This document shows, piece after piece, positions 3,271 through 59,055 of a DNA stretch of 64,000 nucleotides. The position numbers were made by a program, and so were the translations under genes. The notes below the pieces were generated by a model, which worked only from the letters and a program-made list of their open reading frames with translations, had not been told where the DNA came from and did not search any database. The DNA lies in assembly GCA_035360455.1 (NCBI GenBank), contig DAOSAR010000001.1, positions 3,328 through 67,327 on the forward strand, written 5' to 3'. Source of the DNA: Candidatus Pacearchaeota archaeon (lineage in GTDB: Bacteria > Patescibacteriota > Minisyncoccia > Minisyncoccales > GCA-002788555). Numbering within the stretch: position 1 is the first letter of the stretch; every line of letters begins with the position of its first letter.

Positions 3271-3378
3271 TTTTACCCTACCCCTCAACTCACTATATCT
3301 CAGATGGGGGGAATAAGCGAGGTTGGGATCTTTACAGATAGTTCTCCTGCACAAAATTTGAAAAATATAAGAACCTCG
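3271..3378. repeat. Conserved intergenic element, copy 1 (TTTACC-N16-TATATC core plus about 70 nt)
   Basis: TTTACCctacccctcaactcacTATATCtcagatgggg...gcacaaaatttgaaaaatataagaacc aligns with 10073..10183. It lies directly 3' of the stop of ORF 3392..3610. Confidence 0.6.
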
Positions 3379-3391
3379 CTTTTATGTACCT

Positions 3392-3610
3392 TTATAATTC
3401 TTTATAGCTCTTTTCAAAAATATCTTTTTTTTCAACAGGAAGTTCAATTTCAATAGTAGTGCCTCCTATATATTCATTATTTTTTATTTTTACTTTTCCT
3501 CCACACTCTTCTACTACCTTTATATCTTCTTTTAAATCTCGTTTCTTTTTTAAAATAGTAAGTTTGTTTTTAATAAAAACAAATGGTTTCATATAGAATT
3601 TCATATACAA
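3392..3610 (-). pseudogene. Small ORF, possible C-terminal remnant of a histidine-kinase ATPase domain
   Basis: GGKVKIKNNEYIGGTTIEIELPV resembles the G2-box/C-terminal strand of the adjacent kinase (NGKIWAESQGKGKGSTFYVELPV). The N-terminal half has no kinase similarity. Confidence 0.35.
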
Positions 3611-3635
3611 CTTTGTTTTATTAAACTTTTTTTAT

Positions 3636-5291
3636 TTATTTTACGGGTAGCTCAACATAGAAGGTGGAACCCTTACCTTTGCCTTGGGATTCTGCCCAGA
3701 TTTTGCCATTGTGGGCTTTAACAATTTCTGAGGCAAAGTAGAGGCCTATGCCAACTCCGGAAGGGTTGGTGGAAACTGCATCTTTGGATCTTTCGAATAC
3801 TTGAAAGAGTTTTTCTTTTTCTTTTGGGGTCATACCCATGCCTGTATCTTGAACAATAGTTAGAATAGTTCTTGAGTTGTTGTTGTGCTGTACACTTATT
3901 GTAACTCCACCTTCTTTTGTGTATTTTAGAGCATTGTCAACAAGATTTAAGATAACTTCTCTTAGTTTTTGGGAATCAGCTGTTATTTTGGGTAGGGGGT
4001 GTTTGGGTTTGTTGAATTTAAGGTAGAGATTGTATTTTTGGGCTTCGGGCTGGAATTCATTAACTACTTCTTGGATAATATCTTCTAACTGAACGTTGTC
4101 TTGAAAACTAAATTGAAGTTTGCCTGTTTGGAGTTTGTTGAGATCTAAAAGATCATTTACTAAGTTTATTTCTTTTTCGTTTGATCTTTTAACTTCTTCG
4201 ATGAACTCTCTTGCTTTGCCTTGTACTTTGCCGTAGTTACCAGATAGGGCTAGTTCTAAATATCCTTTCATACTGGAGAGAGGGGTTCTGAGTTGATGGG
4301 AAGCAAGGCTGAGGAACATTGTTTTAGTTTCATCTAACCTTTTGTACTCGTTAGCTACTTTTTCTGCTTTTTTTCTTAGGGCTCTTTCTCTGATAGCTAA
4401 CTTTTCAGCTTCTTCTCTTTTTTTCTCTTCTTCGTGAGAGTAGTTTATAAGCTGGTGACCAAGAAAACAGAAAAAAAGAAAGATAGCTAAGCTTGATATT
4501 CTCCAGGTAAGAGTAGGAGCTAAGAATACTTGGATTAGCAATAATATTCCCATTACTCCTACCAAAAGATCAGTTAAAATTACCCTAACTCCAAAAAGTT
4601 GTTTTGCTATTATTGCATAAGCAGTAAAACCTACAAAAAAGATAGAAGAATAGTTACCAAAACGATAATAGATGTCTGAACCAGTAAGAAGAGGAAAAAT
4701 AATGTTAAATACTATGCTAAATAAAGCAAAAATTCCTATCCCCACAAGAAAGTACTGAAGTTGCTTCTTTTCTTGCGCAGAAAGTTTTTTGTACCCTTTT
4801 AAAATTATAAATAAGCAAAAACCCAAAAGGAAAATAATATATGGAAAAAAACAAAAATAATATAATGGCCCGTAAATCAAGTCAAAACTTCCATCTAGGT
4901 GTATAAAAATATTTTTTATTCCAAAAGATGTAAACAAAAATAAAAGGAAAATAAAGAAAGAAATATAAAAAATAATTTTGAAAATATCTTTTTTGAGTAC
5001 AGGAAAAATTTCATAGAAATAAGTTAAAATAAAGAAAAAAATAAAAGTTGCTGAAAGTAAACTACTACTAACAGCTATTTTACTAAAAAGGAGAGAAAGA
5101 GATGGATTTGTCAATGGGAAAAATTCAGAAACATAGGCACTAATAATCCAAAGAATTATTGATAAAGAGAAATAGAAGAAAAATCGATATTTCTGTTTTT
5201 TTGAATTTTTCAAAAAAACCACCAATCCTAAGAAAAAATTTCCTAAAGAGATTATTATTACAAGAATTGTTTCCCAAGTTCCTAATATCAT
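3636..5291 (-). CDS. Sensor histidine kinase with a large polytopic membrane sensor region
   Basis: About 280 aa of TM helices, a coiled coil, H-box SHQLRTPLSSMKGY, N-box LVDNALKYT, G1 DTGMGM, G2 GVGIGL. Confidence 0.88.
   Translation of the reverse strand: MILGTWETILVIIISLGNFFLGLVVFLKNSKKQKYRFFFYFSLSIILWIISAYVSEFFPLTNPSLSLLFSKIAVSSSLLSATFIFFFILTYFYEIFPVLKKDIFKIIFYISFFIFLLFLFTSFGIKNIFIHLDGSFDLIYGPLYYFCFFPYIIFLLGFCLFIILKGYKKLSAQEKKQLQYFLVGIGIFALFSIVFNIIFPLLTGSDIYYRFGNYSSIFFVGFTAYAIIAKQLFGVRVILTDLLVGVMGILLLIQVFLAPTLTWRISSLAIFLFFCFLGHQLINYSHEEEKKREEAEKLAIRERALRKKAEKVANEYKRLDETKTMFLSLASHQLRTPLSSMKGYLELALSGNYGKVQGKAREFIEEVKRSNEKEINLVNDLLDLNKLQTGKLQFSFQDNVQLEDIIQEVVNEFQPEAQKYNLYLKFNKPKHPLPKITADSQKLREVILNLVDNALKYTKEGGVTISVQHNNNSRTILTIVQDTGMGMTPKEKEKLFQVFERSKDAVSTNPSGVGIGLYFASEIVKAHNGKIWAESQGKGKGSTFYVELPVK
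4287..4560. repeat. 274-bp direct repeat, copy A (last TM, linker and H-box start of the kinase)
   Basis: Aligns without indels to 7633..7906, with about 14 mismatches by hand count (roughly 95% identity). Flanking kinase sequence is much more diverged. Confidence 0.9.
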
Positions 5292-6801: not shown

Positions 6802-7584
6802 TTATACCTCTTCCCACAAATCTAAAAATATGGGTTGGGGAGCTTTTTTAAGTGGTTGACCTGAAAGCCACTTTACTATTCCATTAACAACTATTGAGGA
6901 AGTAAGATAAGTAGTAGCGCCAAGCTGAGGACCTGATAGTTCAGAAAGATTTTTTTGACCCATTTTTTTGTAAAACTGTAAAAGATCGGCTGGAAAGGTC
7001 GAGAAAGTATTTTGAAGAAGTTTTAAATAAAATCTATTGTCGCGATAAGTTTCTTCGCCTACAATTTCTCTTAATTTTGGAGAATCAGGGGTAAAAACTA
7101 AAACATAACCTCCCCAAGCAATATTTAAAGGGAAAAAAACTGGCTTTCCTGTATCTTGAGAGTAATCATTAACAAAATATAAAATTTCTTCTGGATCAGC
7201 CATATTTACTACTACATCTGATTTATCTATTAGTTCTTTGGCTAATTTTTTGCTTCTTAAAAAAATAGGATAATACTCAACATTAGCTTTTGGATTTATT
7301 TCTTTTATCATTGAAGCAAGGGCCTCAGCTTTGTTTTTTCCTATGTGTTTATATCTAAAAGCTTGACGGTTAAGATTACTAATATCTACCTTGTCTCCAT
7401 CAATTAAGACAAAGTTCATAAAACCGGTTCTGGCAGCTAAAACTCCAATTTGAGCTCCAAGGCCACAACCCAACAGCATAATTTTGCATTTTTTAATTTT
7501 CTCTTGAAGCTTTTTGGGGATAATGAATTTGTGTCTTAAAACTAAATCTTTATAATTTAAGTTTGGTTTAGAATTTTTTGCCAT
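6802..7584 (-). CDS. E1-like adenylyltransferase, ThiF/MoeB/HesA family (260 aa, no CxxC zinc motifs)
   Basis: KIMLLGCGLGAQIGVLAARTG (Rossmann GxGxxG-like), LIDGDKVDISNLNRQ, KNKAEALASMIKEINP. Confidence 0.75.
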   Translation of the reverse strand: MAKNSKPNLNYKDLVLRHKFIIPKKLQEKIKKCKIMLLGCGLGAQIGVLAARTGFMNFVLIDGDKVDISNLNRQAFRYKHIGKNKAEALASMIKEINPKANVEYYPIFLRSKKLAKELIDKSDVVVNMADPEEILYFVNDYSQDTGKPVFFPLNIAWGGYVLVFTPDSPKLREIVGEETYRDNRFYLKLLQNTFSTFPADLLQFYKKMGQKNLSELSGPQLGATTYLTSSIVVNGIVKWLSGQPLKKAPQPIFLDLWEEV

Positions 7585-7611: not shown

Positions 7612-8598
7612 TTAATAAGAATTGCAAGAAACTCTGAGTTGATGGGAGGCAAGGTTGAGGAACATTGTTTTAGTTTGGTCTAAACTCTTGTACTCGTTAG
7701 CTACTTTTTCTGCTTTTTTTCTTAGGGCTCTTTCTCTGATCGCTAACTTCTCAGCTTCCTCTCTTTTTTTCTCTTCTTCGTGAGAGTAGCTTATAAGCTG
7801 GTGACCAAGAAAACAGAAAAAAAGAAAGATAGCTAAGCTTGATATTCTCCAGGTAAGAGTGGGAGCTAAAAATACTTGGATTAGCAATAATATTCCCATA
7901 ATTCCTACTAACATTTCTGTCAGAATAACCTTGATGTTAAAGAGATGATATTTGAGAATGGCAAAGGCAATGATTAGAGGGTAAAGAAATATTACAAAGT
8001 TTCCATAAGGATATAGTTCAAATCCATACCATTGAGGAAGATTAAAAAGACCGCCTATAGCAGCTATTCCTAAGGCTAAAATAAAATAACCAATCTGTTT
8101 TTTCTTTTCTCCTGTTAGGTGGAAATAATTTTTAATTAATGTTCCAAAAGTGATAACAACCAAGGTTAATCCCCAAACAATATTTAAATTAGCTACTATT
8201 CCTGCCTGCGGCCAATAAGAATAAAAAGAATAAGTCTTAAGCTTTGAAATAAAGAAGGGTGTGAATATCAAAATTATTATTAAAAAACTTATTGAATACA
8301 ACAAAATTAAACTTTTTTTTCTTCTTCCTTCTAAATTTAAAAGAATTAAACCAAGATGATAAAGAAATACTGATGAAAAAATTGAACCGACCATTAATAA
8401 TCTAAGAAAAAATAGACTTTTTTCTTCATTTTGAACTGCTTGCCAAAATCCATAATTTAACTGCCAAAAAGATAATGCCAAGCTAAACAAAAAGAAAATT
8501 TGATTTTCTTTTTTACTTTTATTCCTGAAATAAACAAAAATACCTAAAATTAAAATTAAAAAACAATTTATAAATCCTGAAAAAGCGAGAATACTCAT
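7612..8598 (-). CDS. Truncated sensor kinase paralog: TM sensor, linker and H-box start only, no catalytic domain
   Basis: A diverged polytopic N-terminus, then about 90 aa near-identical to the 551-aa kinase, ending ...LASHQLRVSCNSY*. Its start overlaps the methyltransferase stop (ATGA). Confidence 0.7.
   Translation of the reverse strand: MSILAFSGFINCFLILILGIFVYFRNKSKKENQIFFLFSLALSFWQLNYGFWQAVQNEEKSLFFLRLLMVGSIFSSVFLYHLGLILLNLEGRRKKSLILLYSISFLIIILIFTPFFISKLKTYSFYSYWPQAGIVANLNIVWGLTLVVITFGTLIKNYFHLTGEKKKQIGYFILALGIAAIGGLFNLPQWYGFELYPYGNFVIFLYPLIIAFAILKYHLFNIKVILTEMLVGIMGILLLIQVFLAPTLTWRISSLAIFLFFCFLGHQLISYSHEEEKKREEAEKLAIRERALRKKAEKVANEYKSLDQTKTMFLNLASHQLRVSCNSY
7633..7906. repeat. 274-bp direct repeat, copy B
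   Basis: See 4287..4560. Homology begins 21 nt after the stop codon side of the truncated ORF (tctgagttgatggga...). Confidence 0.9.
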
Positions 8599-10072: not shown

Positions 10073-10183
10073 ATTTACCCCACCTTTCAACTCACTATTT
10101 CTCAGGTGGGGGTGGGAGGTAAAGTTGAGGTTCTTTGAGAAAGTGTATATGGTACTCGTACGCAATTTTTGAAAAATAACAGG
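10073..10183. repeat. Conserved intergenic element, copy 2
   Basis: TTTACCccacctttcaactcacTATTTCtcaggtggggg...cgcaatttttgaaaaataacagg. Contains a perfect 8-bp hairpin CCCCACCT-N18-AGGTGGGG. Confidence 0.6.
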
Positions 10184-10187
10184 AGGG

Positions 10188-10224
10188 TTTACCCTACTCC
10201 TCTACTCACTATATTTTCTAAGGG
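10188..10224. repeat. Conserved intergenic element, copy 3 (core only)
   Basis: TTTACCctactcctctactcacTATATTttctaaggg. It ends 1 nt before the stop codon of ORF 10226..10765. Confidence 0.55.
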
Positions 10225-10225
10225 A

Positions 10226-10765
10226 TCAATATTTTACTTTTTCCCAATCTGTATTTAAAATACAACCCTCTATGCATTCTTCCCTAGTTGAATAACCCTT
10301 AGTTGAAAAATCTATAGTTATAGTTGGAAAATCCTTCCAATATTTCCAATATGACCAAACCCCTTCTCCTTGTTGTGTAATTTCATAAGTGCATCGTTTT
10401 TTACAATCATTAACTTTTGCAACGTGATTAGAAATTATTATACTCCCTGTTACAATAATGGCTATAATAATTAACCAAAACCACCATTTTTTCCAGACTG
10501 GACTTTTCTCAACTTTTTCTCTATGTTGAAACTCCCAAATCCATTTATGAAAGTAATTTATAACTAAAGCTACTATTGCTGAAAAAGAAATTAAAGTAAA
10601 AAACATTCCAAATATTTCCCCTACTGAAGCCTCATCTTCATTTAGGCTTATAATAGTTATAACCGTCATTAAAACACTAATAATAGCAAAAACAGCAAAT
10701 TTAATTAAAAATTCTCTTTTAAAATTAAACTTAATATTAGATTTTTGTATTGGTTCTTTTTCCAT
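10226..10765 (-). CDS. Hypothetical membrane protein with a C-terminal 4-Cys extracytoplasmic domain
   Basis: Three predicted TM helices, including KKWWFWLIIIAIIVTG (the same WWFWL anchor motif as ORF 19797..20339). The tail has C..C...C..C. Confidence 0.5.
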   Translation of the reverse strand: MEKEPIQKSNIKFNFKREFLIKFAVFAIISVLMTVITIISLNEDEASVGEIFGMFFTLISFSAIVALVINYFHKWIWEFQHREKVEKSPVWKKWWFWLIIIAIIVTGSIIISNHVAKVNDCKKRCTYEITQQGEGVWSYWKYWKDFPTITIDFSTKGYSTREECIEGCILNTDWEKVKY

Positions 10766-12867: not shown

Positions 12868-13020
12868 ATTGTCGCAATGGATTTTATTTGAACGGCGTCC
12901 AATAGAAAAGGACTTCCGTTCTTATGACAATTCCTTTCGGAACTGTCTATCGTCTTTTGACGATAACCATTGCGACAAAAAAACAGAACGGAAGTCCGTC
13001 TCTATGTCGCAATGGATTTT
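12868..13020 (-). promoter_or_regulatory. Structured 5' leader with mutually exclusive helices
   Basis: TGTCGCAATGGATTTT at 12870..12885 and 13005..13020, with the inverted copy CCATTGCGACA at 12967..12977. Perfect 13-bp pair 12910..12922 / 12985..12997. Hairpins at 12948..12965 and about 12924..12946. Confidence 0.5.
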
Positions 13021-13110
13021 TATGCCATGTCCTTTTAGGATTTAGGCAATTAATGTTATAAATTTAAATTTTCAAAAAAAATAAAAAACAGAAGATCTCT
13101 TTTCTTTAAG

Positions 13111-23402: not shown

Positions 23403-23520
23403 TTGAAATTATATCAACGAATTACGAATCTAATACGAATTTACGAATGTAAGTTAAGGGTATTTAAGGACATTCACAGTTTGCAGCATTCGCATAAAAT
23501 TCGTAGATTCGCATCGTATA

Positions 23521-36148: not shown

Positions 36149-37312
36149 CTATTGTTCACCTAATTGTGCCTCCAACTCCATTTCTTTTCCATTTCTTAAT
36201 ATTTTTAATTTAATCTTATCACCAACATTGTGAGAAAGAATTATTTTAGATAAAGTGTTTTTGGTTGTAATTTTTTGACCATCTATTTCTAAAATAATGT
36301 CATTTTCTTTTAACCCAGCCTTGTCTGCTGCACTTCCTGGGGTTACTGCTACATCTCCTATTCCACTTCCTCTCACCACCCAAGCGCCATAATCTACTGG
36401 CAAGTTATATTGTTTTTGTATATTCTCGTCAATTAAAACATGTCTTACGCCAAGAAAAGGATAAGTAATTTTCCCTGTAGCTTTTACGCTTTCTATTGCT
36501 TTTTTCGCTTGATTAATAGGAATAGCAAAACCAATATTTTCAGCACCTGAAGCCACAGCTGTATTAATACCAATAATTTCACCGGATAAATTTAAAAGTG
36601 GTCCTCCAGAGTTTCCTGAGTTAATCGCTGCATCAGTTTGGATTAATTGGTCTAATGTTTCTGCAATTCCTCCACCACTAGCTGTAATGCTTCTTGAAAG
36701 CCCAGAAACAACCCCCACAGAAACACTGTTTTGAAATTCTCCTAAAGCATTGCCAATGGCAATTACTGTCTGGCCAATTTTAAGATTATCAGAATCACCT
36801 AATGGTAAGGGAGTAAAAGATTCGCCTGACTTTGGATCAATTTTCAAAACTGCTAAATCCTGCGAAGAAGCTCTTGCTAAAACTTTAGCTGGATATTGTT
36901 CATTATTAGATAAAATTACTGTATAGTTAATATTTTCGTATTGAACAACATGTTTATTTGTCAAAATTAAACCATCAGAAGAAATAATAAAGCCCGTACC
37001 GCCACTCTTAATTTGTTGAGAAAAGAAGGGAATTCCTGGTATTGCTATTTCTCCTTCAGCTATAATTGACACTACACTAGGTAAAGCATCATTAACTACC
37101 TTTATTACCTGTTCTTCTTGACTGCTTGTAACTTCTTTTTCAATAATCTTAGGCGATGTTTCATCTGTTGTTTGAGTGGGAGATGTAGTATTTATTGAAT
37201 TTCCAAAAACTTTCATTACTTGGGGATAATAATTTATCGCCAAAACACCTCCGGCAAAACCGACTATTAAAGAAATAATGACTGATATAACAATAATATA
37301 TTGAGGTTTCAT
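36149..37312 (-). CDS. HtrA/DegP-family serine protease with a PDZ domain
   Basis: Start moved to MKPQYIIVISVII (ATG 37312) because the track's first 51 codons translate the repeat element. TNKHVV (His), DLAVLKI (Asp), GNSGGPLLN (Ser). Confidence 0.85.
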   Translation of the reverse strand: MKPQYIIVISVIISLIVGFAGGVLAINYYPQVMKVFGNSINTTSPTQTTDETSPKIIEKEVTSSQEEQVIKVVNDALPSVVSIIAEGEIAIPGIPFFSQQIKSGGTGFIISSDGLILTNKHVVQYENINYTVILSNNEQYPAKVLARASSQDLAVLKIDPKSGESFTPLPLGDSDNLKIGQTVIAIGNALGEFQNSVSVGVVSGLSRSITASGGGIAETLDQLIQTDAAINSGNSGGPLLNLSGEIIGINTAVASGAENIGFAIPINQAKKAIESVKATGKITYPFLGVRHVLIDENIQKQYNLPVDYGAWVVRGSGIGDVAVTPGSAADKAGLKENDIILEIDGQKITTKNTLSKIILSHNVGDKIKLKILRNGKEMELEAQLGEQ

Positions 37313-37693
37313 AAATTTATAAGGTGTGTGCACCAAAATGTTTTGGGGTATGGGTTCCTCCCATGTTTTGGTTCCAGGAAATAATCCTCCAAATTTGCTT
37401 TGCAAATTTGGAGACCACGTGGTCTCCAAAAATTGTTTTACAATTTTTGGAGTATTACGACGCAAGAAACCAGAATTTTACGAAAGTAAAATTACTGGTG
37501 TCTTGAGGGATGCTCCAAGAATACTTCGTATTCTTTTCGCCGAATTTACTTCGTAAATTCGAGCTCGAAACCAAAACTGCTTTTCTCTTATGAGGCATTT
37601 ATGCCGAATGTTTTGGTTCCAGAAAGATAGGAGCGTAGCGACGTAAGAAAACAGCTTGGCTGTTGTCTTACAGGAGGTCTGGAACCAAAACTG
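37313..37693. repeat. Composite hairpin-module element, locus 1 (about 2.5 units)
   Basis: GTTTTGGTTCCAG at 37365..37377 and 37610..37622. The reverse complement is at 37679..37691 and 37567..37577 (the latter 11 bp with one mismatch). 37497..37692 aligns with 43105..43310. Confidence 0.85.
37387..37452. promoter_or_regulatory. Three interlocked palindromes (candidate operator or RNA switch)
   Basis: CTCCAAATTTGC-ttt-GCAAATTTGGAG; TTGGAGACCACGTGGTCTCCAA (perfect 22-bp palindrome, 37408..37429); CTCCAAAAATTGT-ttt-ACAATTTTTGGAG. Confidence 0.5.
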
Positions 37694-41515: not shown

Positions 41516-41639
41516 AGTTTTTTCTATCAACGAATATACGAATTTATTACGAATTTACAAACAAATATTCTATTTTATTATAGAACTAAATTAATTTGTA
41601 AATCCGAGAATGATTCGTAATTCGTTGATATTTTAATAA

Positions 41640-43017: not shown

Positions 43018-43104
43018 ATAATTTTATAATTAAAATAAATAAAACTGCGAAAAAAACTTCTCGTAGTTTCTGCGCTTTTTTTAAAAAACCGAAACGGCTT
43101 GCCC

Positions 43105-43310
43105 GTGTCTTTAAGGGATGCTCAAAGAAAGCAAAGCTTTCTTTTCGCCGAATTCACAAAGTGAATTCGAGCTCGAAACCAAAACTGATTGAAGGTATGG
43201 AATTCTTTCCATGTTTTGGTTCCAGGAAGATAGGAACGTAGTGACGTAAGAAACCAAAATTTTATGAAATAAAATTGTTGGTGTCTTAAGGGAGGTCTGG
43301 AACCAAAACT
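43105..43310. repeat. Composite hairpin-module element, locus 2
   Basis: CTGGAACCAAAAC at 43297..43309 overlaps the secY stop. Its partner GTTTTGGTTCCAG is at 43213..43225, with a third arm at 43175..43185. Collinear with 37497..37692. Confidence 0.85.
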
Positions 43311-46286: not shown

Positions 46287-46859
46287 TTAAAATTCTTCCT
46301 TTTCCCACAACATCATTATTGCTCCATTATATTCGAAAATTTCACAATTTTCAAAAATTTCATCTAATATTTTTTTGATTTCTTCTTTGCGAAAAGGCTT
46401 ACCTAATTCAAGAATGTTTGAAATATTTAATTTTGAATTATCTCCTTCTTTTTTTAATGGTTCTCTTAAAAAGAAATATTGAAAATTATTTTTAATTCTT
46501 TTTAAAACTTCTTTTGGATTTTTTAAATGGTGTAGAACTCCCCACATTACTGCAAGTTCTCCATTTGGCATTTCTTCTTCTAAATTCATAACTTTTGCAT
46601 TAATACCCCTCTTTCTTGCTTTTTTTATTAAACTTTCTTCTATATCGCAAGCAAAAACCTTTTTTGGTTGAAAAATTTCTGTAAGCAAAATTGTCACCTT
46701 TCCATCTCCACACCCCAAATCATACATTTCTCGTTTTCTAAAATCTTCTGGCAAAATTTTTTTTAAAAAGGTTAATTGATCTTTGATATGAGAACCAATA
46801 ATAATATTATTACCAAAAGGGGTATAAAGAAATTTTTCAAGATTGTTCATAAATTTCAA
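46287..46859 (-). CDS. Class I SAM-dependent methyltransferase inserted between rpsH and rplF
   Basis: MYDLGCGDGKVT (motif I), FACDIEE (post-I), AVMWGVLHHL (motif II). Confidence 0.7.
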   Translation of the reverse strand: MKFMNNLEKFLYTPFGNNIIIGSHIKDQLTFLKKILPEDFRKREMYDLGCGDGKVTILLTEIFQPKKVFACDIEESLIKKARKRGINAKVMNLEEEMPNGELAVMWGVLHHLKNPKEVLKRIKNNFQYFFLREPLKKEGDNSKLNISNILELGKPFRKEEIKKILDEIFENCEIFEYNGAIMMLWEKEEF

Positions 46860-46991
46860 TCTACGATGTAGCTTACGTCACCTTTTTCAAATCTACGAAT
46901 TTATCCAAATACCACGAATATATTCGAATGTGCGTTTTTGGATAAAGTAAGGCCTGAGTTTATCGAAGAACGAGCTCAGGCTTTTCAAATA
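46860..46991. repeat. Spacer with ACGAAT words and a GC-richer hairpin module
   Basis: ctacgatgtagCTTACGTCACc (shares CTTACGTCAC with 43237..43246), tacgaattt, cgaatatattcgaat, hairpin GCCTGAG-N16-CTCAGGC. Confidence 0.6.
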
Positions 46992-47387: not shown

Positions 47388-47579
47388 AGTGATAATACAA
47401 AGTTAGTCGCTCACCCTCTTCCAGAACTTTGTTCTGGCGCTCGGCTTTACCTCGCTTCGGGCTCGCTCTTAAGAAACCCTCGGTTTCTTACGTCGCTTCG
47501 CTCCTATTTTCCTATGTGGGGAAACCGGAGGGTTTCCCCAGTCCCTTTCCGATAGGGGACGCTTTTCTTACTTTCTTCT
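47388..47579. repeat. GC-richer hairpin-module spacer between S14 and S8 (related to the composite element, opposite orientation)
   Basis: CCAGAAC-ttt-GTTCTGG; AAGAAACC-ctc-GGTTTCTT followed by ACGTCGCTTCGCTCCTATTTTCCT (compare TTTCTTACGTCGCTACGCTCCTATCTTTCT on the other strand at 37630..37650); GGGGAAACC-ggag-GGTTTCCCC. Confidence 0.75.
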
Positions 47580-47765
47580 TTACCAAGATGATTTTTTTAC
47601 TCCTGGCAACAACCCTTTGTTAGCTAACTCACGAAAACAAATTCGGCAAAGACCAAAATCTCGCATATAACCTCTTCTTCTACCACAACGCCAACATCGT
47701 CTTACTTTCCGTGTTGAAAATTTTGGTTTTTTTTGACTTTTAATAACTTGACATTTTTTGGCCAT
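47580..47765 (-). CDS. rpsN: Ribosomal protein S14, zinc-binding type Z (61 aa)
   Basis: [23 protein letters not shown]. Confidence 0.93.
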
Positions 47766-47831: not shown

Positions 47832-48419
47832 TTATTTAGAATTTAGAGTTTTAAATTTAGGATTTTCCACTTTTAGTGGAAACCCTAAGAGTTTATACAA
47901 TTCTATTGCTTCTTCTCTGCTTTTTGCATCTGTAACTATTGTTATTTCTAAGCCAAAAATTATTTTAGCTTTTTCTGGTTTTATCTCTGGAAAAACTATA
48001 TGCTCTTTTATTCCTATTGTCAAATTACCTCCCTTGTCAATGCAATCTTGAGAAATTCCTTGAAAATCACGTGAGCGAGGAAGAGCAAAATTTAATAATC
48101 TTTCTAAAAAATCATACATTCGCTTCCTTCTTAGGGTTACTTTTAGTCCCACTGACGAACCTTTTCTAATTTTAAATCCAGAAATTGCTTTTTTTGCTTT
48201 GGTAATAATTGGCTTTTGACCACAAATTAAGGCAAGGTCAGAAGATATGCTTTCCAAAAGATTTTCTCTTTTTGAAGGGTCAACGCTTTCCAAAACTTTC
48301 CCAACACCAACATTCACTACCACTTTTGTAATTTTTGGCACAGCCATAACGCTTTTATAACCAAATTTTTCTTTCATTTCGGGAATAACTTCTTTTTTAT
48401 ATTTTTCTTGTAATTGCAT
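47832..48419 (-). CDS. rplE: Ribosomal protein L5
   Basis: Start taken at MQLQEKYKKEVIPEMKEKFGY. The C-terminal 12 aa (VENPKFKTLNSK) are encoded by spacer-type TTTAGA(A/G)TT words. Confidence 0.9.
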   Translation of the reverse strand: MQLQEKYKKEVIPEMKEKFGYKSVMAVPKITKVVVNVGVGKVLESVDPSKRENLLESISSDLALICGQKPIITKAKKAISGFKIRKGSSVGLKVTLRRKRMYDFLERLLNFALPRSRDFQGISQDCIDKGGNLTIGIKEHIVFPEIKPEKAKIIFGLEITIVTDAKSREEAIELYKLLGFPLKVENPKFKTLNSK

Positions 48420-48485
48420 AACCATCAACGAATTACTAATCTCTTACTAATGTACGAACATACGAATTCGTAATTCGTAAATTAT

Positions 48486-48849: not shown

Positions 48850-49221
48850 TTATACTATATTTTTTGACATTGTCACGATTCTACTAAATCCTTTATCTTT
48901 TAAACAACGAGGAATAGGACCTAAGATTCTTGTTCCTTTTGGATTTTTAGTTTTCCCATCAAGAATAACTGCTGCATTGTCGTCAAATCGTAAATAAATT
49001 CCACTTTTTAATCTAAAAGGTTTTTTTTGACGAACAACAACTGCTCTTACAATATCTTTCTTTTTTACTGTTCGTCGTGGTTCAGCTTCTTGTACTGAAG
49101 CAACAATAATATCACCAATCTGAGCATACCGTCTTTTTGAACCTCCTAAAACTTTAAAACAACGGATTGTTTTTGCTCCAGTATTATCAGCAACTTTTAA
49201 AATGGTACGAGGTTGAATCAT
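48850..49221 (-). CDS. rplN: Ribosomal protein L14
   Basis: Start moved to MIQPRTILKVADNTGAK (49221). The 31 upstream codons in the track are spacer. Confidence 0.93.
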   Translation of the reverse strand: MIQPRTILKVADNTGAKTIRCFKVLGGSKRRYAQIGDIIVASVQEAEPRRTVKKKDIVRAVVVRQKKPFRLKSGIYLRFDDNAAVILDGKTKNPKGTRILGPIPRCLKDKGFSRIVTMSKNIV

Positions 49222-49321
49222 ATTCGCTTCGTTTAAAATCGAATTGCAAATATCAAAAAGAAAAATTAAAAAATTCTTTTTGCATTTTACATTTTCATTT
49301 GCTGAGTTTTTCACTTTAGGT

Positions 49322-49536
49322 GAAAGAACGAAGCGTGAAATGAAACTATTGTTTCATTGAACTGCTTTTTGATGGGCGAAGAGAACTTTGTTCTCTTCTT
49401 GACCTTCGCTTTCGCGTTGCAAAAGTTCGGTAGGCGAAGAGAGCTTTGTTCTCTTCTTCCATCGAGGCTTTAGCTAAGATGTGAAAAGAATGAAATTCTT
49501 TGACCGCTTCGTCTCGCTTCGCTCGACTCAGCTTTT
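49322..49536. repeat. GC-richer hairpin-module spacer between S17 and L14
   Basis: GAAGAGAAC-ttt-GTTCTCTTC (49378..49398), GAAGAGAGC-ttt-GTTCTCTTC (49436..49456). The 30-mer at 49507..49536 is the reverse complement of 58900..58929. Confidence 0.85.
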
Positions 49537-49779
49537 TATTTTTGAATTAACTTTTTCTACTACTTTCCATTTTTTCTCTTTTGAAATTGGTCTTGTCTCT
49601 TCAATAGTAACTTTATCACCTATTTTCAAATTATTATTTTCATTATGGGCTTTATATCTTTTATGGGTTTTATATCGCTTTTTATATTTTTTTTGATATG
49701 CCCACTGCTCAACCTCTACTACAACTGTCTTTTGCATTTTATTTGAAACTACAATTCCTTGTAATTGTTTTTTTGACAT
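49528..49779 (-). CDS. rpsQ: Ribosomal protein S17
   Basis: [21 protein letters not shown]...[19 protein letters not shown]. Confidence 0.92.
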
Positions 49780-49818
49780 ATAAGTTTAAATATTAAATCA
49801 CAAATTCCAAATTCCAGA

Positions 49819-50022
49819 TTATTTGTTATTTGGTGCTTGGTGCTTGGGATTTAATACTGTAAGTATCCTTGCAATATCTTTCTTAATTTCTCTTATTTCT
49901 CTAATATTTTTAACTTTCTTTTGAGAAAGATCAAATCTAAGTTGAATCATTTTTTTTCTTTTTTCTTCAAGAAGTTTTTCTAATTCTGCCTTTGATAAAT
50001 TTTTCAATTCTGACATTTTCAT
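49819..50022 (-). CDS. rpmC: Ribosomal protein L29
   Basis: LKNLSKAELEKLLEEKRKKMIQLRF. The C-terminal tail NPKHQAPNNK is encoded by (TTGGTGC)x2. Confidence 0.9.
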   Translation of the reverse strand: MKMSELKNLSKAELEKLLEEKRKKMIQLRFDLSQKKVKNIREIREIKKDIARILTVLNPKHQAPNNK

Positions 50023-51615: not shown

Positions 51616-51707
51616 AATTTCTATACAAATTATAAATCCTTTGCTAGGTATACAAAAACATATATAAACATAGTTCGTAAATTCGACATCGATTCGTAAT
51701 TCATTGA

Positions 51708-51992
51708 TTATTTTGTTTCTTCTTTTCTCTCAAGCTCTCTTTCCATTTTACCACCATGTCTTTGAAATTTTGTGGTTGGTGAAAATTCACCAAGCCGATG
51801 ACCAACCATTTCTTCTCTAATTTTAACAGAAATAAATTCTTTGCCATTATGGACAAGAAATTCCATTCCAATCATTTCTGGAGTAATCATTGCTGACCTT
51901 GCCCATGTTTTAATGGGTTGACCTTTTGATTCTTTCATTTTCTTTTCTAACTTTGGATCTCTATAAATACCTTTTTTTAAACTTCTTGCCAT
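51708..51992 (-). CDS. rpsS: Ribosomal protein S19
   Basis: MARSLKKGIYRDPKL...VHNGKEFISVKIREEMVGHRLGEFSPT. Confidence 0.95.
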   Translation of the reverse strand: MARSLKKGIYRDPKLEKKMKESKGQPIKTWARSAMITPEMIGMEFLVHNGKEFISVKIREEMVGHRLGEFSPTTKFQRHGGKMERELERKEETK

Positions 51993-54844: not shown

Positions 54845-54957
54845 CCAGGTTATTTCCCCATCTTTTCTATTAAATAAAAAAAATTGATTTAAAAAGAAAA
54901 TTCATGATAAATAAGAAATTCGTAAATTCGTAATGAATTTGTAATTCGTTGATCATT

Positions 54958-55320
54958 CTACATTTTAATTTCTACATCTACTCCTGCTGGCAAATTAAGA
55001 TTTTGAAGAGTATCAATAATTCGACGATTAGGATTTAAAATATCAATAATTCTTTTATGAATTCTTATTTCAAACTGTTCTCGAGCATCCTTATGGACAA
55101 ACGTTGAACGATTTACTGTATATTTTTTAATTTCTGTTGGTAAAGGAATTGGTCCAACCACTTCTGCTCCTTGCCTTAAAACACTTTCTACAATTTGTCT
55201 TGCAGAGCTATCAACTAATCGATGATCATAAGCTTTTATTTTAATTCTAAGGGCAGGAAGAGATGATTTGTTTTCTTTCTCATTTTTTGTTGTCGATGTA
55301 CTCTCAATTTTAGCAGACAT
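54958..55320 (-). CDS. rpsJ: Ribosomal protein S10 (about 20-aa N-terminal extension if the ATG at 55320 is used)
   Basis: [23 protein letters not shown]... Confidence 0.92.
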
Positions 55321-58885: not shown

Positions 58886-59055
58886 ATAAATTAAAAATCA
58901 AAAGCTGAGTCGAGCGAAGCGAGACGAAGTGGAAGAAGAGAATGAAATTCTCTTCGCCCACCGAGTTTTCGCAACAGCGAAACGAGGCGAGAGACGAGAA
59001 CGAAGTTCTCGGCGATCATAAAAACTCAAAAAATTTTTGAGCTTAGAAGTTAAAT
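58886..59055. repeat. GC-richer hairpin-module spacer between S7 and EF-G
   Basis: The 30-mer AAAAGCTGAGTCGAGCGAAGCGAGACGAAG (58900..58929) is the inverse of 49507..49536. Hairpins GAAGAGAAT-gaa-ATTCTCTTC (58935..58955) and GAGAAC-gaa-GTTCTC (58996..59010). Confidence 0.85.

What the first reader, a model, noticed from the sequence alone, without database searches (positions are those of the whole stretch)
49322..49536. GC-richer triloop-hairpin modules occupy spacers of the ribosomal operons in both orientations
Spacers that are normally a few nt long are 130-300 nt here: S17/L14 is 306 nt, S14/S8 192 nt, S7/EF-G 170 nt and S8/MTase 132 nt. They are visibly GC-richer than their surroundings. 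They share modules. The 30-mer AAAAGCTGAGTCGAGCGAAGCGAGACGAAG occurs at 58900..58929 and inverted at 49507..49536, where it overlaps the last codons of rpsQ. Stems of 9 bp with 3-nt loops recur, including GAAGAGAAC-ttt-GTTCTCTTC twice, GAAGAGAAT-gaa-ATTCTCTTC and CCAGAAC-ttt-GTTCTGG. The TTTCTTACGTC.CT.CG.TCCTAT module links them to the composite element at 37.5 and 43.2 kb. Because copies occur in both orientations relative to transcription, a DNA-level (REP/MITE-like) proliferating element is more likely than a single cis-regulatory RNA. Stems nevertheless show compensatory differences.
Basis: partly seen in the sequence, partly recalled or inferred. Interest (0 to 1): 0.55.

Follow-up and report, generated by a model that had tools for sequence, protein, structure and literature searches.

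The report
Mobile two-hairpin repeats in CPR operons
The long GC-richer spacers in this candidate-phyla-radiation bacterium's ribosomal operons are nests of a roughly 60-base two-hairpin selfish DNA repeat that is multi-copy in many such genomes and also sits in frame inside essential genes, much like the palindromic elements of Rickettsia.

Summary
All quoted coordinates, spacer lengths and hairpins are present, and the spacers are 36-50% GC against 32% for the window.

The S17/L14 and S7/EF-G spacers are clusters of one unit: TCA-NNN-ACCGAG-[variable hairpin A]-CGAAGGTGAA-[GAAGAGAAC-NNN-GTTCTCTTC]-GCC. S17/L14 holds about four copies in both orientations. S7/EF-G holds two copies, antisense to the operon.

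The unit is not confined to the window:
- 7 kb past the window end, one copy is a 57-nt in-frame insertion in tsaD. A 73%-identical relative has the precise empty site.
- A covariance model found 329 copies in 710 kb of those loci.
- All three helices covary.
- Copies lie in frame in enolase, UvrA, FtsZ, tRNA synthetases and Mur ligases, and within a 23S rRNA gene span.
- Related lineages have compact operons without it.

No Rfam family, paper or transposase was found. The mobilising enzyme is unknown. The S14/S8 spacer is a separate, conserved structured element.

The parts
49372..49432 (-). Canonical two-hairpin unit (U3): UACCGAA-CUUUUGC-AAC-GCGAAAG-CGAAGGUCAA-GAAGAGAAC-AAA-GUUCUCUUC-GCC. 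It is in sense orientation to the operon.
   Evidence: The covariance model R1 scores it 74.1 bits, E=1.5e-20, over the full model length.
49507..49545 (-). 5' half of unit U1: TCAAAAATAAAAA-GCTGAG-TC GAGCGAAGCGA GA-CGAAG. It contains a GCGAAGC mini-hairpin cap, and it overlaps the last codons and the TGA stop of rpsQ.
49462..49506 (+). A 45-nt unit-like segment in the opposite orientation: TCGAG-GCTTTAGC-TAAGATGTGAA-AAGAAT GAA ATTCTT-TGACCG. It splits U1, either as a nested insertion or as a propagated composite.
   Evidence: One search shows a 45-nt insertion relative to the S7/EF-G and tsaD units. One search gives a weak model hit at 49460-49507(+), 15.8 bits, E=0.008. The same composite lies after pgk in L241.
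49433..49461 (-). 3' half of unit U1: TGGAA-GAAGAGAAC-AAA-GCUCUCUUC-GCC.
   Evidence: One search finds a hairpin-B-only hit at 49436-49459(-), 23.2 bits.
49301..49362 (+). Diverged unit (U4) on the opposite strand: GCTGAG-TTTTTCAC TTTA GGTGAAAGAA-CGAAGCGTGAA-ATGAAAC TATT GTTTCAT-TGAAC. Together with U1 it creates the apparent terminal inverted repeat.
   Evidence: Searches show the GCTGAGT...ACTCAGC closing helix. One search gives coordinates and one search finds it in the half-unit scan. The covariance model does not score it as significant, so the assignment rests on architecture only.
58898..58958 (+). S7/EF-G unit 1: TCAAAA-GCTGAG-TC GAGCGAAGCGA GA-CGAAGTGGAA-GAAGAGAAT GAA ATTCTCTTC-GCC. 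It is antisense to the operon.
   Evidence: The covariance model scores it 55.1 bits, E=9.5e-15.
58959..59016 (+). S7/EF-G unit 2, diverged: CACCGAG-TTTTCGC AACA GCGAAA-CGAGGCGAGA-GACGAGAAC GAA GTTCTCGGC-GAT.
   Evidence: The covariance model scores it 24.9 bits, E=1.5e-5.
46953..46980 (+). Fragment in the S8/methyltransferase spacer: CCTGAG-TTTATC-GAAGAACGAG-CTCAGG. It resembles the 5' part of U4.
   Evidence: The sequence is and the coordinates. The link is by similarity only, and there is no significant model hit.
47388..47579 (-). S14/S8 spacer, a four- to five-hairpin structured element directly upstream of rpsH. It contains a half-unit (CCGAG-CG CCAGAAC AAA GTTCTGG-AAGAGGGTGA) and module C. 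It is conserved in position and orientation in relative L008.
   Evidence: Fold z-score is -3.9. nhmmer against L008 gives E=3e-29. Five compensatory pairs and a 53-nt identical block are seen although S8 is only 65% identical. The half-unit scan is.
37314..37692 (+). Hairpin-rich composite between tRNA-Ser and htrA (true htrA start is the ATG at 37313). It contains module C (37627-37650) and, on the - strand, a diverged unit-like segment TCGAG-hairpin-CGAAAAGAA-hairpin (37534-37568).
43096..43310 (+). Second copy of the composite, directly after the secY stop codon. It has the same orientation as the first copy, and its hairpins carry compensatory differences.
   Evidence: family D10.. nhmmer gives E=4e-26. 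One search finds a half-unit at 43142-43176(-).
49528..49779 (-). rpsQ (S17), the host gene whose 3' end and stop codon are supplied by the element.
   Evidence: Pfam Ribosomal_S17, E=8.5e-30. C-termini of relatives are compared.
48850..49221 (-). rplN (L14), the downstream host gene. The 154-aa GTG-start open reading frame is an over-extension into the spacer.
   Evidence: The Pfam match begins at residue 32 of the long ORF. Homologues are 123 aa.

Best explanation
The S17/L14 and S7/EF-G spacers are clusters of a small, non-coding repeat unit that spreads at the DNA level. Fragments of it, or of its relatives, appear in the S8/MTase, S14/S8, tRNA-Ser/htrA and secY/hrcA spacers.

The unit is about 57-66 nt: TCA-NNN-ACCGAG-[hairpin A]-CGAAGGTGAA-[hairpin B]-GCC.
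- ACC pairs with GGT across a purine-rich GA/GAA internal loop.
- Hairpin A is free in sequence but always paired.
- Hairpin B is GAAGAGAAC-NNN-GTTCTCTTC or a compensated variant.

Shown:
- The unit is multi-copy in many Patescibacteria genomes.
- It lies on either strand, singly, in tandem or head to head.
- Orthologous sites exist with and without it.
- It persists in frame inside essential protein genes and within a 23S rRNA gene span.
- In this window it supplies the stop codon and last residues of S17, lengthens spacers that are 4-8 nt in related lineages, and is fixed in the population.

Inferred:
- Copies are made by a trans-acting enzyme that recognises the conserved single-stranded linkers plus a folded hairpin. 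The most likely candidate is an HUH/Y1-type single-strand DNA transposase of the RAYT or IS200/IS605 kind.
- New copies survive where they are tolerated, namely A/T-rich heptamer-repeat tracts, operon spacers, gene ends and surface loops.
- Effects on the operon's mRNA (stable hairpins, possible processing or stability sites) are secondary.
For: Family and structure
They are concentrated in Nealsonbacteria, Paceibacter, Minisyncoccales, 'Parcubacteria' and unnamed CPR MAGs.
- The consensus unit was derived.
- Covariance model R1 finds 329 hits at E<=1e-3 in 710 kb of these loci.
- Covariation on the hand-picked alignment: 112 double-change cells against 40 in shuffles (0 of 500 shuffles as high), 94% of cells paired against 43-51% when partners are slid.
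- On 150 model-aligned copies: 511 against 156, with double changes in 3 of 3, 7 of 7 and 6 of 9 pairs of the three helices.

Window copies: 74, 55 and 25 bits.

Insertion polymorphism
- The tsaD copy is at L138:2420-2479.
- PDB TsaD alignments break exactly there.
- The nearest homologue lacks 19 residues, and its DNA lacks exactly 57 nt within an (AAAAAGC)n tract.
- At least 15 further junction-spanning empty sites were found. One pair is 92% identical.
- Related operons L135 and L136 have 4-8 nt spacers. L008, L009 and L012 carry other fillers and give no model hit.

Coding and RNA-gene copies
- 12 of 75 canonical units lie inside ORFs (9 sense, 3 antisense). The genes are enolase, UvrA, FtsZ, ThrRS, ArgRS, another class II aaRS, Mur ligases and a CDP-alcohol phosphatidyltransferase.
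- Enolase carries a 23-residue insert at the unit.
- Two units lie within a 23S rRNA gene span.

Other
- Orientation among the 150 best hits is 75 plus and 75 minus, relative to the stored strand of each locus.
- G.T and A.C mismatches are equally frequent, 13 against 18, so no single strand is favoured.
- Flanking direct repeats are in excess: 21 cases of 6 nt or more, against 8.4 in shuffled pairings (maximum 16).
- A composite form, U1 split by an inverted unit, recurs after pgk in another MAG.
- The hairpin-A cap GCGAAGC is the known ultra-stable single-strand DNA mini-hairpin (PMC13037366).
- The 18-mer cap also sits next to an IS605-type tnpB and at the 3' end of an IS200-type tnpA in unrelated metagenome contigs.
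Against: - No transposase was found: not in the window (tblastn), not in about 0.7 Mb of unit-rich loci, and not between inverted unit pairs. The mobilising enzyme is pure inference.
- The unit has no terminal inverted repeats. Clean target-site duplications are seen in only a minority of copies, and many of those lie in tandem heptamer tracts, where a duplication cannot be told from the repeat itself.
- Both orientations occur on what looks like one replichore (monotonic GC skew). That is not what IS200/IS605 elements typically show (my knowledge).
- Copy number in this genome is known only for about 82 kb. It is 3 significant model hits in the two spacers plus one in tsaD, besides partial and diverged copies, and all window copies sit in highly expressed operons. 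The 1-36 kb part of the window has none.
- 24 contigs of the same population show no presence/absence polymorphism.
- Strong stem covariation and conserved linkers would also fit a functional RNA.
Confidence: 0.8

Rival explanations
1. The spacers are functional RNA structures of the operon transcripts. They would act as intercistronic processing or stability hairpins or as ribosomal-protein autoregulatory leaders, for example an S8-responsive element upstream of rpsH. On this view the repeats are similar because they bind the same factor.
For: - Folds are far more stable than shuffles.
- The S14/S8 spacer lies directly upstream of rpsH. It is conserved in position and orientation in L008, with 5 compensatory pairs and a 53-nt identical block, although S8 itself is only 65% identical.
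- All window copies lie in highly expressed operons.
- Strong covariation and conserved unpaired linkers are seen across the family.
Against: - The S7/EF-G units are antisense to the operon while the S17/L14 units are mixed.
- The same unit lies in frame in coding sequences, in sense and antisense orientation, and within an rRNA gene span.
- Orthologous spacers in close lineages are 4-8 nt long.
- There is no excess of G.U over A.C mismatches.
- No Rfam leader matches.
- No sense-strand terminator-like site lies in the two spacers.
- I saw no resemblance to the S8 site of 16S helix 21. That comparison was by eye from memory.
Confidence: 0.12
2. The units spread without any transposase. Hairpin-promoted replication slippage, template switching or gene conversion between short tandem heptamer tracts would copy them, so they are a by-product of repeat instability rather than a transposable element.
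For: - The tsaD empty site is an (AAAAAGC)4 tract.
- The enolase, 23S and other copies are flanked by heptamer repeats such as GTTCAAA and ATTAGAA.
- Most other spacers of this clade hold tandem 7-8-mer hairpins whose copy number differs between strains.
- No transposase was found.
- Tandem arrays of partial units exist (L173, L206).
Against: - Near-identical linker and hairpin-B sequences occur at dozens of unlinked sites and in different classes of Patescibacteria. That needs long-range copying and probably horizontal spread.
- A conserved 5' TCA-NNN and conserved single-stranded linkers look like a recognition site.
- Insertions are discrete units of 57-66 nt.
Confidence: 0.07
3. The hairpin clusters are guide-RNA-type arrays, such as TIGR stem-loop arrays or another RNA-guided system of CPR bacteria.
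For: TIGR-Tas systems occur in parasitic bacteria and include arrays of stem-loop units (PMC12045711). The units here form local clusters of hairpins.
Against: - The stems are perfect and short with 3-4 nt loops. They lack the internal loops with dual spacers flanked by box C/D-like motifs described for TIGR stem arrays.
- The clusters lie inside r-protein operons and inside coding sequences.
- Units are dispersed over whole genomes rather than arrayed next to one gene.
- The window's proteins were not all screened for a Nop-domain gene, so absence of a Tas gene was not shown.
Confidence: 0.01

Closest known systems
Rickettsia palindromic elements (RPE). Source: my knowledge (Ogata et al. 2000, Science); not re-read here.
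   Same: - Short, non-coding, hairpin-forming repeats.
- Found in a reduced-genome, host-dependent bacterial lineage.
- Many copies, in intergenic DNA, in frame inside essential protein genes (adding a peptide segment), and in RNA genes.
- No transposase of their own.
   Different: - Unrelated sequence.
- About 57-66 nt against roughly 100-150 nt.
- Defined two-hairpin architecture with conserved single-stranded linkers.
- Forms tandem and head-to-head clusters.
- Found in several classes of Patescibacteria rather than one genus.
REP / BIME elements mobilised by RAYT (TnpA-REP) transposases. Source: my knowledge (Nunvar et al. 2010; Ton-Hoang et al. 2012).
   Same: - Small imperfect palindromes with a conserved short motif 5' of the hairpin.
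- Stems that covary.
- Clusters of copies in alternating orientation separated by conserved linkers, located inside operons between genes.
- Can affect mRNA stability.
   Different: - REPs are extragenic, whereas these units also sit in coding sequences and within an rRNA gene span.
- The unit has two hairpins plus a 3-bp closing helix.
- The 5' motif is TCA, not GTAG.
- No RAYT gene flanked by units was found in the sampled DNA.
IS200/IS605 family and its non-autonomous derivatives (PATEs). Source: my knowledge (He et al. 2015).
   Same: - Depend on sub-terminal single-strand DNA hairpins.
- No terminal inverted repeats, and little or no target duplication.
- Insert next to a short specific sequence.
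- The cap 18-mer of the window's hairpin A occurs beside an IS605-type tnpB and an IS200-type tnpA in other organisms.
   Different: - Much shorter than known PATEs.
- No distinct left and right ends.
- Both orientations occur on one replichore.
- No parent IS with the same ends was found.
MITEs (for example Correia elements, Nezha, RUP). Source: my knowledge.
   Same: - Small, non-autonomous, multi-copy and structured.
- Show presence/absence polymorphism.
- Can be co-transcribed and can alter gene ends.
   Different: - The unit lacks terminal inverted repeats.
- A fixed-length target-site duplication is not evident.
- No related autonomous IS is known.

Membership tests
REP/BIME (RAYT-associated) | Short imperfect palindrome with a conserved oligonucleotide 5' of the hairpin | tested here: met
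   Hairpins covary. A conserved TCA (58 copies), or TTA (29 copies), lies 3 nt upstream of ACCGAG among the 150 best hits. The motif is not the GTAG of known REPs.
REP/BIME (RAYT-associated) | Clusters of copies in alternating orientation with conserved linkers | tested here: met
   S17/L14 has units on both strands. Head-to-head and tandem clusters occur in CPR loci.
REP/BIME (RAYT-associated) | Strictly extragenic location | tested here: not met
   The unit is in frame in tsaD, enolase, UvrA, FtsZ, aaRS and Mur ligase genes, and lies within a 23S rRNA gene span.
REP/BIME (RAYT-associated) | A RAYT (Y1 HUH) gene in the genome, typically flanked by inverted REPs | tested here: inconclusive
   None was found by tblastn with an IS200-type TnpA in the window or in 0.7 Mb of loci. 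ORFs lying between inverted units resemble, by eye, tgt and efp rather than a transposase; this was not tested with Pfam. Whole genomes could not be read, and tblastn would miss distant RAYTs.
MITE | Terminal inverted repeats | tested here: not met
   The unit ends TCAnnnACCGAG and CTCTTCGCC are not inverted copies of each other. The GCTGAGT/ACTCAGC 'TIR' of the S17/L14 cluster comes from two opposed units.
MITE | Target-site duplication of fixed length | tested here: inconclusive
   Flanking direct repeats of 6 nt or more are in excess, 21 against 8.4. They have no fixed length. The two nucleotide-level filled/empty pairs show at most 3 nt of ambiguity, or an adjacent 8-nt duplication.
MITE | Derived from an autonomous IS with the same ends | not testable with these tools
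   Complete genomes could not be searched. No IS was seen in the sampled loci.
Rickettsia palindromic elements (RPE) | Sequence homology to RPE families; restriction to Rickettsia | not tested
   No RPE sequences were available for comparison. The host here is Patescibacteria, so membership is excluded on taxonomy. The resemblance is behavioural.
Rickettsia palindromic elements (RPE) | In-frame insertion in protein genes that stay intact, plus intergenic and RNA-gene copies | tested here: met
IS200/IS605-derived PATE | Distinct left and right ends with sub-terminal hairpins matching a full-length IS; strand bias with replication | tested here: not met
   There is a single repeated unit and no left/right end pair. 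Both orientations occur within one window of monotonic GC skew. No parent IS was found.
Known ribosomal-protein leader / Rfam RNA family | Match to a curated covariance model | tested here: not met
   There is no Rfam 15 hit in the spacers at gathering score or at E<=5, and none on canonical units in L158, L190 and L222 at E<=1.
TIGR stem-loop array | Array of stem-loops with dual spacers flanked by box C/D-like motifs, next to a Nop-domain Tas gene | tested here: not met
   Unit stems are perfect and have no internal spacer loops. Units are dispersed and lie inside genes. The defining features are taken from PMC12045711. Presence of a Tas gene was not exhaustively screened.

The most novel reading that the evidence does not exclude
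The unit may be more than selfish DNA. Patescibacteria might tolerate it in essential genes, rRNA and r-protein operons because it is handled at the RNA level, either excised or cleaved at its conserved GA/GAA junction, or used as intercistronic punctuation. It might also be copied by a mobilisation system still unknown and specific to this phylum. Either would be a new kind of element-host relationship in the smallest bacterial genomes.
Probability: 0.1. Interest if true: 0.9.

Novelty: new variant of a known kind. Interest (0 to 1): 0.68.

Why it matters
Patescibacteria have some of the smallest and most streamlined bacterial genomes. A repeat that proliferates there, and survives inside tsaD, enolase, uvrA, ftsZ, tRNA synthetase genes, 23S rDNA and the core ribosomal operons, is unexpected. 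It parallels the only well-known case, Rickettsia RPEs, which is also in a reduced host-dependent lineage.

Practical consequences:
- The units corrupt gene calls in MAGs. In this window they explain the over-extended rplN and htrA starts, the altered S17 C-terminus, and spurious GC-rich ORFs on the opposite strand.
- They add about 19-23 residue inserts that will confuse structure prediction and phylogenomic alignments.
- They offer lineage markers and insertion polymorphisms for strain tracking.

Scientific consequences:
- The sharply defined consensus (conserved single-stranded linkers, a free but always paired hairpin A, a near-fixed hairpin B) is a ready substrate for finding the enzyme that moves it.
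- It also allows a test of whether such hairpins act as mRNA punctuation in operons of organisms with reduced RNA-processing machinery.

I found no description of this family in the searchable literature or in Rfam.

Tried and rejected
- Rfam at gathering and permissive thresholds on the window, on 20 metagenome loci and on 3 unit-rich loci. Nothing covers the spacers or units.
- BLAST of the S7/EF-G element against plasmids and phages. No match.
- A methyltransferase-based scan of species-representative genomes to fetch the source genome. No relative was found, so the r-protein contig's lineage is not in that collection.
- A metagenome scan with the 18-mer hairpin-A cap. It saturated at 119 contigs of 27-72% GC from unrelated organisms, so it gave no copy count for this genome. 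It showed the cap is a widespread motif.
- Hammerhead ribozyme. The cap region reads UGA-GUC...GAC-GAA like positions 7-14 of a hammerhead, but the CUGA core is missing or out of register and Rfam finds none. Rejected by inspection.
- K-turn. The GA/GAA junction lacks the 3-nt bulge. Rejected by inspection.
- S8-binding mimic in the S14/S8 spacer. I saw no asymmetric loop like 16S helix 21. This was from memory and is not decisive.
- TIGR arrays. The architecture does not fit.
- Transposase searches: tblastn with an IS200-type TnpA and an IS605-type TnpB from loci L130 and L100 against the window and the unit-rich loci, plus inspection of ORFs between inverted units. Nothing was found.
- Target-site duplication at fixed offsets. 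No consistent length. Only a general excess of flanking repeats.
- Strand asymmetry of wobble pairs, to decide RNA against DNA. None was found.
- Strain polymorphism in 24 contigs of the same population. None; all are at least 99.8% identical.
- Viral contig scans. Hairpin B gave 0 hits and the cap 23-mer gave 2.
- Literature searches by sequence strings and by topic. Nothing relevant beyond the GCGAAGC mini-hairpin review.
Full report
**Setting.** The window is 32% GC with nearly all genes on the minus strand.
- It is identical to part of ENA contig ERZ27257413:k141_447421 (172 kb). The same population, at least 99.8% identical, occurs in 24 contigs from JGI, ENA and Logan samples.
- L14 and S8 homologues place it in Patescibacteria. 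The nearest named L14 hits are Minisyncoccales (71%) and Pacebacteria (73%). One NCBI MAG carrying the identical S8 is mislabelled 'Pacearchaeota'.
- Pfam confirms rpsG-fusA-tuf-S10-spc gene order, with a methyltransferase between rpsH and rplF.

**Observation.** Every item in the finding is present.
- Spacer lengths are 306, 192, 170 and 132 nt.
- GC is 0.37-0.50 against 0.317 for the window and 0.16-0.30 for most other spacers.
- The 30-mer is exact at 58900-58929(+) and 49507-49536(-).
- The two spacers are homologous over about 150 nt in inverted orientation (E=2e-13).
- The named hairpins exist. The only correction is that the second GAAGAGAAC hairpin (49436) carries a G.T pair.
- GARCGWAGYGA occurs 6 times against 0.03 expected.
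- Fold z-scores are -3.4 to -6.1.
- rpsQ's TGA and last codons lie in the element.

- A minority are single hits in unrelated phyla; those I read are coding sequence (for example EENLDLFA in high-GC genomes).
- The rest cluster in Patescibacteria:
  - E14_metabat.bin.93, more than 30 stretches
  - Ca. Nealsonbacteria ER9H13parc1, complete genome, 7 stretches
  - Nealsonbacteria LacPavin MAG_36_17, more than 10 stretches
  - Ca. Paceibacter normanii
  - a Minisyncoccales MAG
  - several TPA MAGs labelled Saccharibacteria
- Their contexts give a sharp consensus: TCA-NNN-ACCGAG-[hairpin A, 4-11 bp, 34 distinct stems among 56]-CGAAGGTGAA-[GAAGAGAAC-NNN-GTTCTCTTC]-GCC.
- ACC pairs with GGT, and this helix covaries as ATC/GAT and ACT/AGT.
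- All seven hairpin-A pairs show double changes. There are 112 double-change cells against 40 in shuffles (0 of 500 as high), and 94% of cells are paired against 43-51% when partners are slid.
- A covariance model built from this alignment finds 329 hits (E<=1e-3) in 710 kb of those loci.
- On the 150 best hits, hairpin B also covaries in 6 of 9 pairs. Caveat: that alignment is fitted to the model.

**Copies in the window.**

| Position | Strand | Score | Note |
|---|---|---|---|
| 49372-49432 | - | 74 bits | canonical unit |
| 58903-58961 | + | 55 bits | S7/EF-G unit 1 |
| 58966-59019 | + | 25 bits | S7/EF-G unit 2 |
| 49436-49459 | - | 23 bits | hairpin B only |
| 49460-49507 | + | 15.8 bits | weak |

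- Aligning the S17/L14 U1 with the S7/EF-G U1 and the tsaD unit shows that U1 in S17/L14 is split by 45 nt. That segment is itself unit-like on the other strand.
- The same split composite follows pgk in MAG DAOPTN01.
- A fourth, diverged unit lies on the plus strand at 49301-49362. With U1 it produces the long closing helix seen in the fold.
- So S17/L14 is a mosaic of about four units in both orientations, and S7/EF-G holds two tandem units antisense to the operon.

**Mobility.** Extending the contig by 9.4 kb past the window end revealed another copy inside tsaD, in frame.
- PDB TsaD sequences align to residues 2-18 and 53-399 only.
- The nearest homologue, 73% identical, lacks 19 residues. 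Its DNA (L139) lacks exactly 57 nt within an (AAAAAGC)4 tract.
- Related lineages that share the clade-specific methyltransferase have compact operons. S17/L14 and S14/S8 spacers are 4-8 nt in L135 and L136. L008, L009 and L012 carry unrelated fillers and give no model hit.
- Joining the flanks of 140 units and searching the other loci gave 24 junction-spanning matches. At least 15 units have an orthologue without the unit, including a 92%-identical pair at the 3' end of a Mur ligase gene. There the filled allele reads through the unit and gains 27 residues.
- 12 of 75 canonical units lie at least 30 codons inside real genes: enolase, UvrA, FtsZ, ThrRS, ArgRS, another class II aaRS, three Mur ligases and a CDP-alcohol phosphatidyltransferase. 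Nine are sense and three antisense.
- The enolase insert of 23 residues falls between positions 314 and 315 of a solved enolase.
- Two units lie within the span of a 23S rRNA gene that is about 600 nt longer than the model.

**Mechanism.**
- Shown: a structured, multi-copy, orientation-independent, insertion-polymorphic DNA unit.
- Not shown: how it moves.
  - The unit has no terminal inverted repeats.
  - Fixed-offset target duplications are absent.
  - Flanking direct repeats are nonetheless in excess and often belong to tandem heptamers.
  - G.T and A.C mismatches are equally common, which argues against selection on one RNA strand.
- Hints towards a single-strand DNA route:
  - The cap of hairpin A in the window copies, GUC-GA-GC-GAA-GC-GA-GAC, contains GCGAAGC, the extraordinarily stable DNA mini-hairpin (PMC13037366, seen).
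  - The 18-mer cap occurs in at least 119 unrelated metagenome contigs. In L100 and L111 it sits at the tip of a long hairpin upstream of an IS605-type tnpB. In L130 it sits at the 3' end of an IS200-type tnpA.
  - Together with the conserved 5' TCA and single-stranded linkers, this makes an HUH/Y1 single-strand DNA enzyme my best guess, at about 25%.
- Against that guess: no such gene was found in any sampled DNA, and both orientations occur on one replichore.
- Slippage or template switching at heptamer tracts is the main alternative route.

**Other spacers.**
- The S14/S8 spacer is homologous and collinear in L008 (nhmmer E=3e-29). It has a 53-nt identical block and five compensatory pairs although S8 is only 65% identical. 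It is absent from L132, L135 and L136, and only partly similar in L133. It is therefore an older, maintained element that may have a host role upstream of rpsH.
- The S14/S8 spacer, the S8/MTase fragment and the two composites (37314-37692, 43096-43310) contain half-units or diverged units of the same architecture, YCGAG-hairpin-CGAA..-hairpin.
- Their module C (GACGTAAGAAA...) is confined to this lineage and L008.
- A different element ('family X') occupies S17/L14 in L009-L011, L29/S17 in L008-L011 and L14/L24 in L135. This shows that r-protein spacers of this clade are a general landing zone.

**Comparison and novelty.**
- In behaviour the family is closest to Rickettsia palindromic elements: in-frame survival in essential genes, RNA-gene copies, no transposase, and a reduced genome.
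- In organisation it is closest to REP/BIME clusters.
- It fails the REP criterion of being extragenic, and it fails the MITE criterion of terminal inverted repeats.
- No Rfam family and no paper in the searchable library describes it.
- I rate it a new variant of a known kind.

**Limits.**
- The loci were chosen by pattern.
- Per-genome copy numbers, and the count for this organism beyond about 82 kb, are unknown.
- Knowledge of RPE, REP and IS200 is from memory.

Noticed in passing
window 49780-49850, 23411-23448, 41527-41631, 48412-48458, 51674-51728, 54918-54973; L008 1935-2122 and 4900-5085; L009 2250-2412 and 5190-5296; L012 7569-7645: Most other spacers of the r-protein and chaperone operons hold hairpins built from short tandem repeats. 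Examples are AAATTCC.../...TTGGTGC, TTCGTAAATTCG.../...CGAATTACGAA and, in relatives, (AGCTTCTT)n-loop-(ACAAGCT)n. Repeat number differs between L008 and L009 although their L14 proteins are identical. The two-hairpin units often sit in or beside such heptamer tracts.
   Followed up: partly
loci L013-L131 (metagenome contigs); window 49512-49529 and 58907-58924: The 18-mer GAGTCGAGCGAAGCGAGA, a hairpin with tandem G.A pairs and a GCGAAGC cap, occurs in at least 119 unrelated metagenome contigs of 27-72% GC. Contexts include just upstream of rpsS in a 53-58% GC organism (L023, L055, L090), next to tRNA genes (L074, L127), inside long perfect palindromes in high-GC genomes (L040, L048, L101), upstream of an IS605-type tnpB (L100, L111), and at the end of an IS200-type tnpA (L130). 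No Rfam family covers it.
   Followed up: partly
L009 6220-6378, L010 582-738, L011 629-785, L008 5684-5788, L135 1327-1433: A second, unrelated small element (GTTTTGTCCACGAAGAC...CCTTTACCC-hairpin-...TTCTAACATG) occupies different r-protein spacers in different relatives: S17/L14, L29/S17 and L14/L24. In L009 it extends the S17 reading frame.
   Followed up: partly
window 12926-13048 (-): A LOOT RNA (Rfam RF03000, 63.8 bits) lies next to tRNA-Leu and tRNA-Cys.
   Followed up: no
window 46287-46859 (-): A SAM-dependent methyltransferase gene sits between rpsH and rplF in the spc operon. It is conserved at that position in relatives L008 (81% identical), L135 and L136. No relative was found in the species-representative genome collection.
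   Followed up: partly
window 48850-49314, 36149-37465, 47429-47623 (+), 49481-49696 (+): The repeats cause gene-call artefacts. The longest ORFs for rplN (GTG at 49314) and htrA (TTG at 37465) run into the repeat-filled spacers; the true starts are the ATGs at 49221 and 37313. The GC-rich spacers also create spurious 64- and 71-aa ORFs on the opposite strand.
   Followed up: yes
L222 2618-6149 (units at 3588-3647 and 4440-4499): In a Minisyncoccales MAG, two identical units with identical 70-nt flanks lie within the span of a 23S rRNA gene that is about 600 nt longer than the Rfam model. A weak group I intron match lies downstream, between the 23S and 5S genes (7042-7316).
   Followed up: partly
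L138 1347-2549 (-) (tsaD, about 7 kb past the window end): Besides the 57-nt unit, TsaD carries a roughly 20-residue low-complexity insert (SKSKIRNSKQIPNSKFKIQN) that many CPR homologues share. It appears to be encoded by AAATTCC-type heptamer repeats, so tandem-repeat DNA also seems to persist inside coding sequence.
   Followed up: partly
window 4287-4586 and 7633-7932: A 300-nt direct repeat (92% identical) lies inside two neighbouring genes annotated with HisKA_7TM domains. These are probably recent paralogues or a product of gene conversion.
   Followed up: no
window 3272-3342, 10074-10144, 10188-10231: A 44-71 nt repeat (TTTACCCTACCCCTCAACTCACTATATCTCAGATGGGGGG...) occurs three times in intergenic DNA in the first part of the window. 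Its nature is unknown.
   Followed up: no
L241 6490-6680 and L192 14-70 (MAG DAOPTN01, labelled Candidatus Pacearchaeota): This 30-32% GC MAG carries the same split composite unit as the S17/L14 spacer, located after pgk, plus another unit next to 'ctaatttctaattt' repeats. An NCBI record of the window's own S8 protein carries the same 'Pacearchaeota' label, so the MAG may be the same or a sister species. That would add copies elsewhere in the genome.
   Followed up: partly
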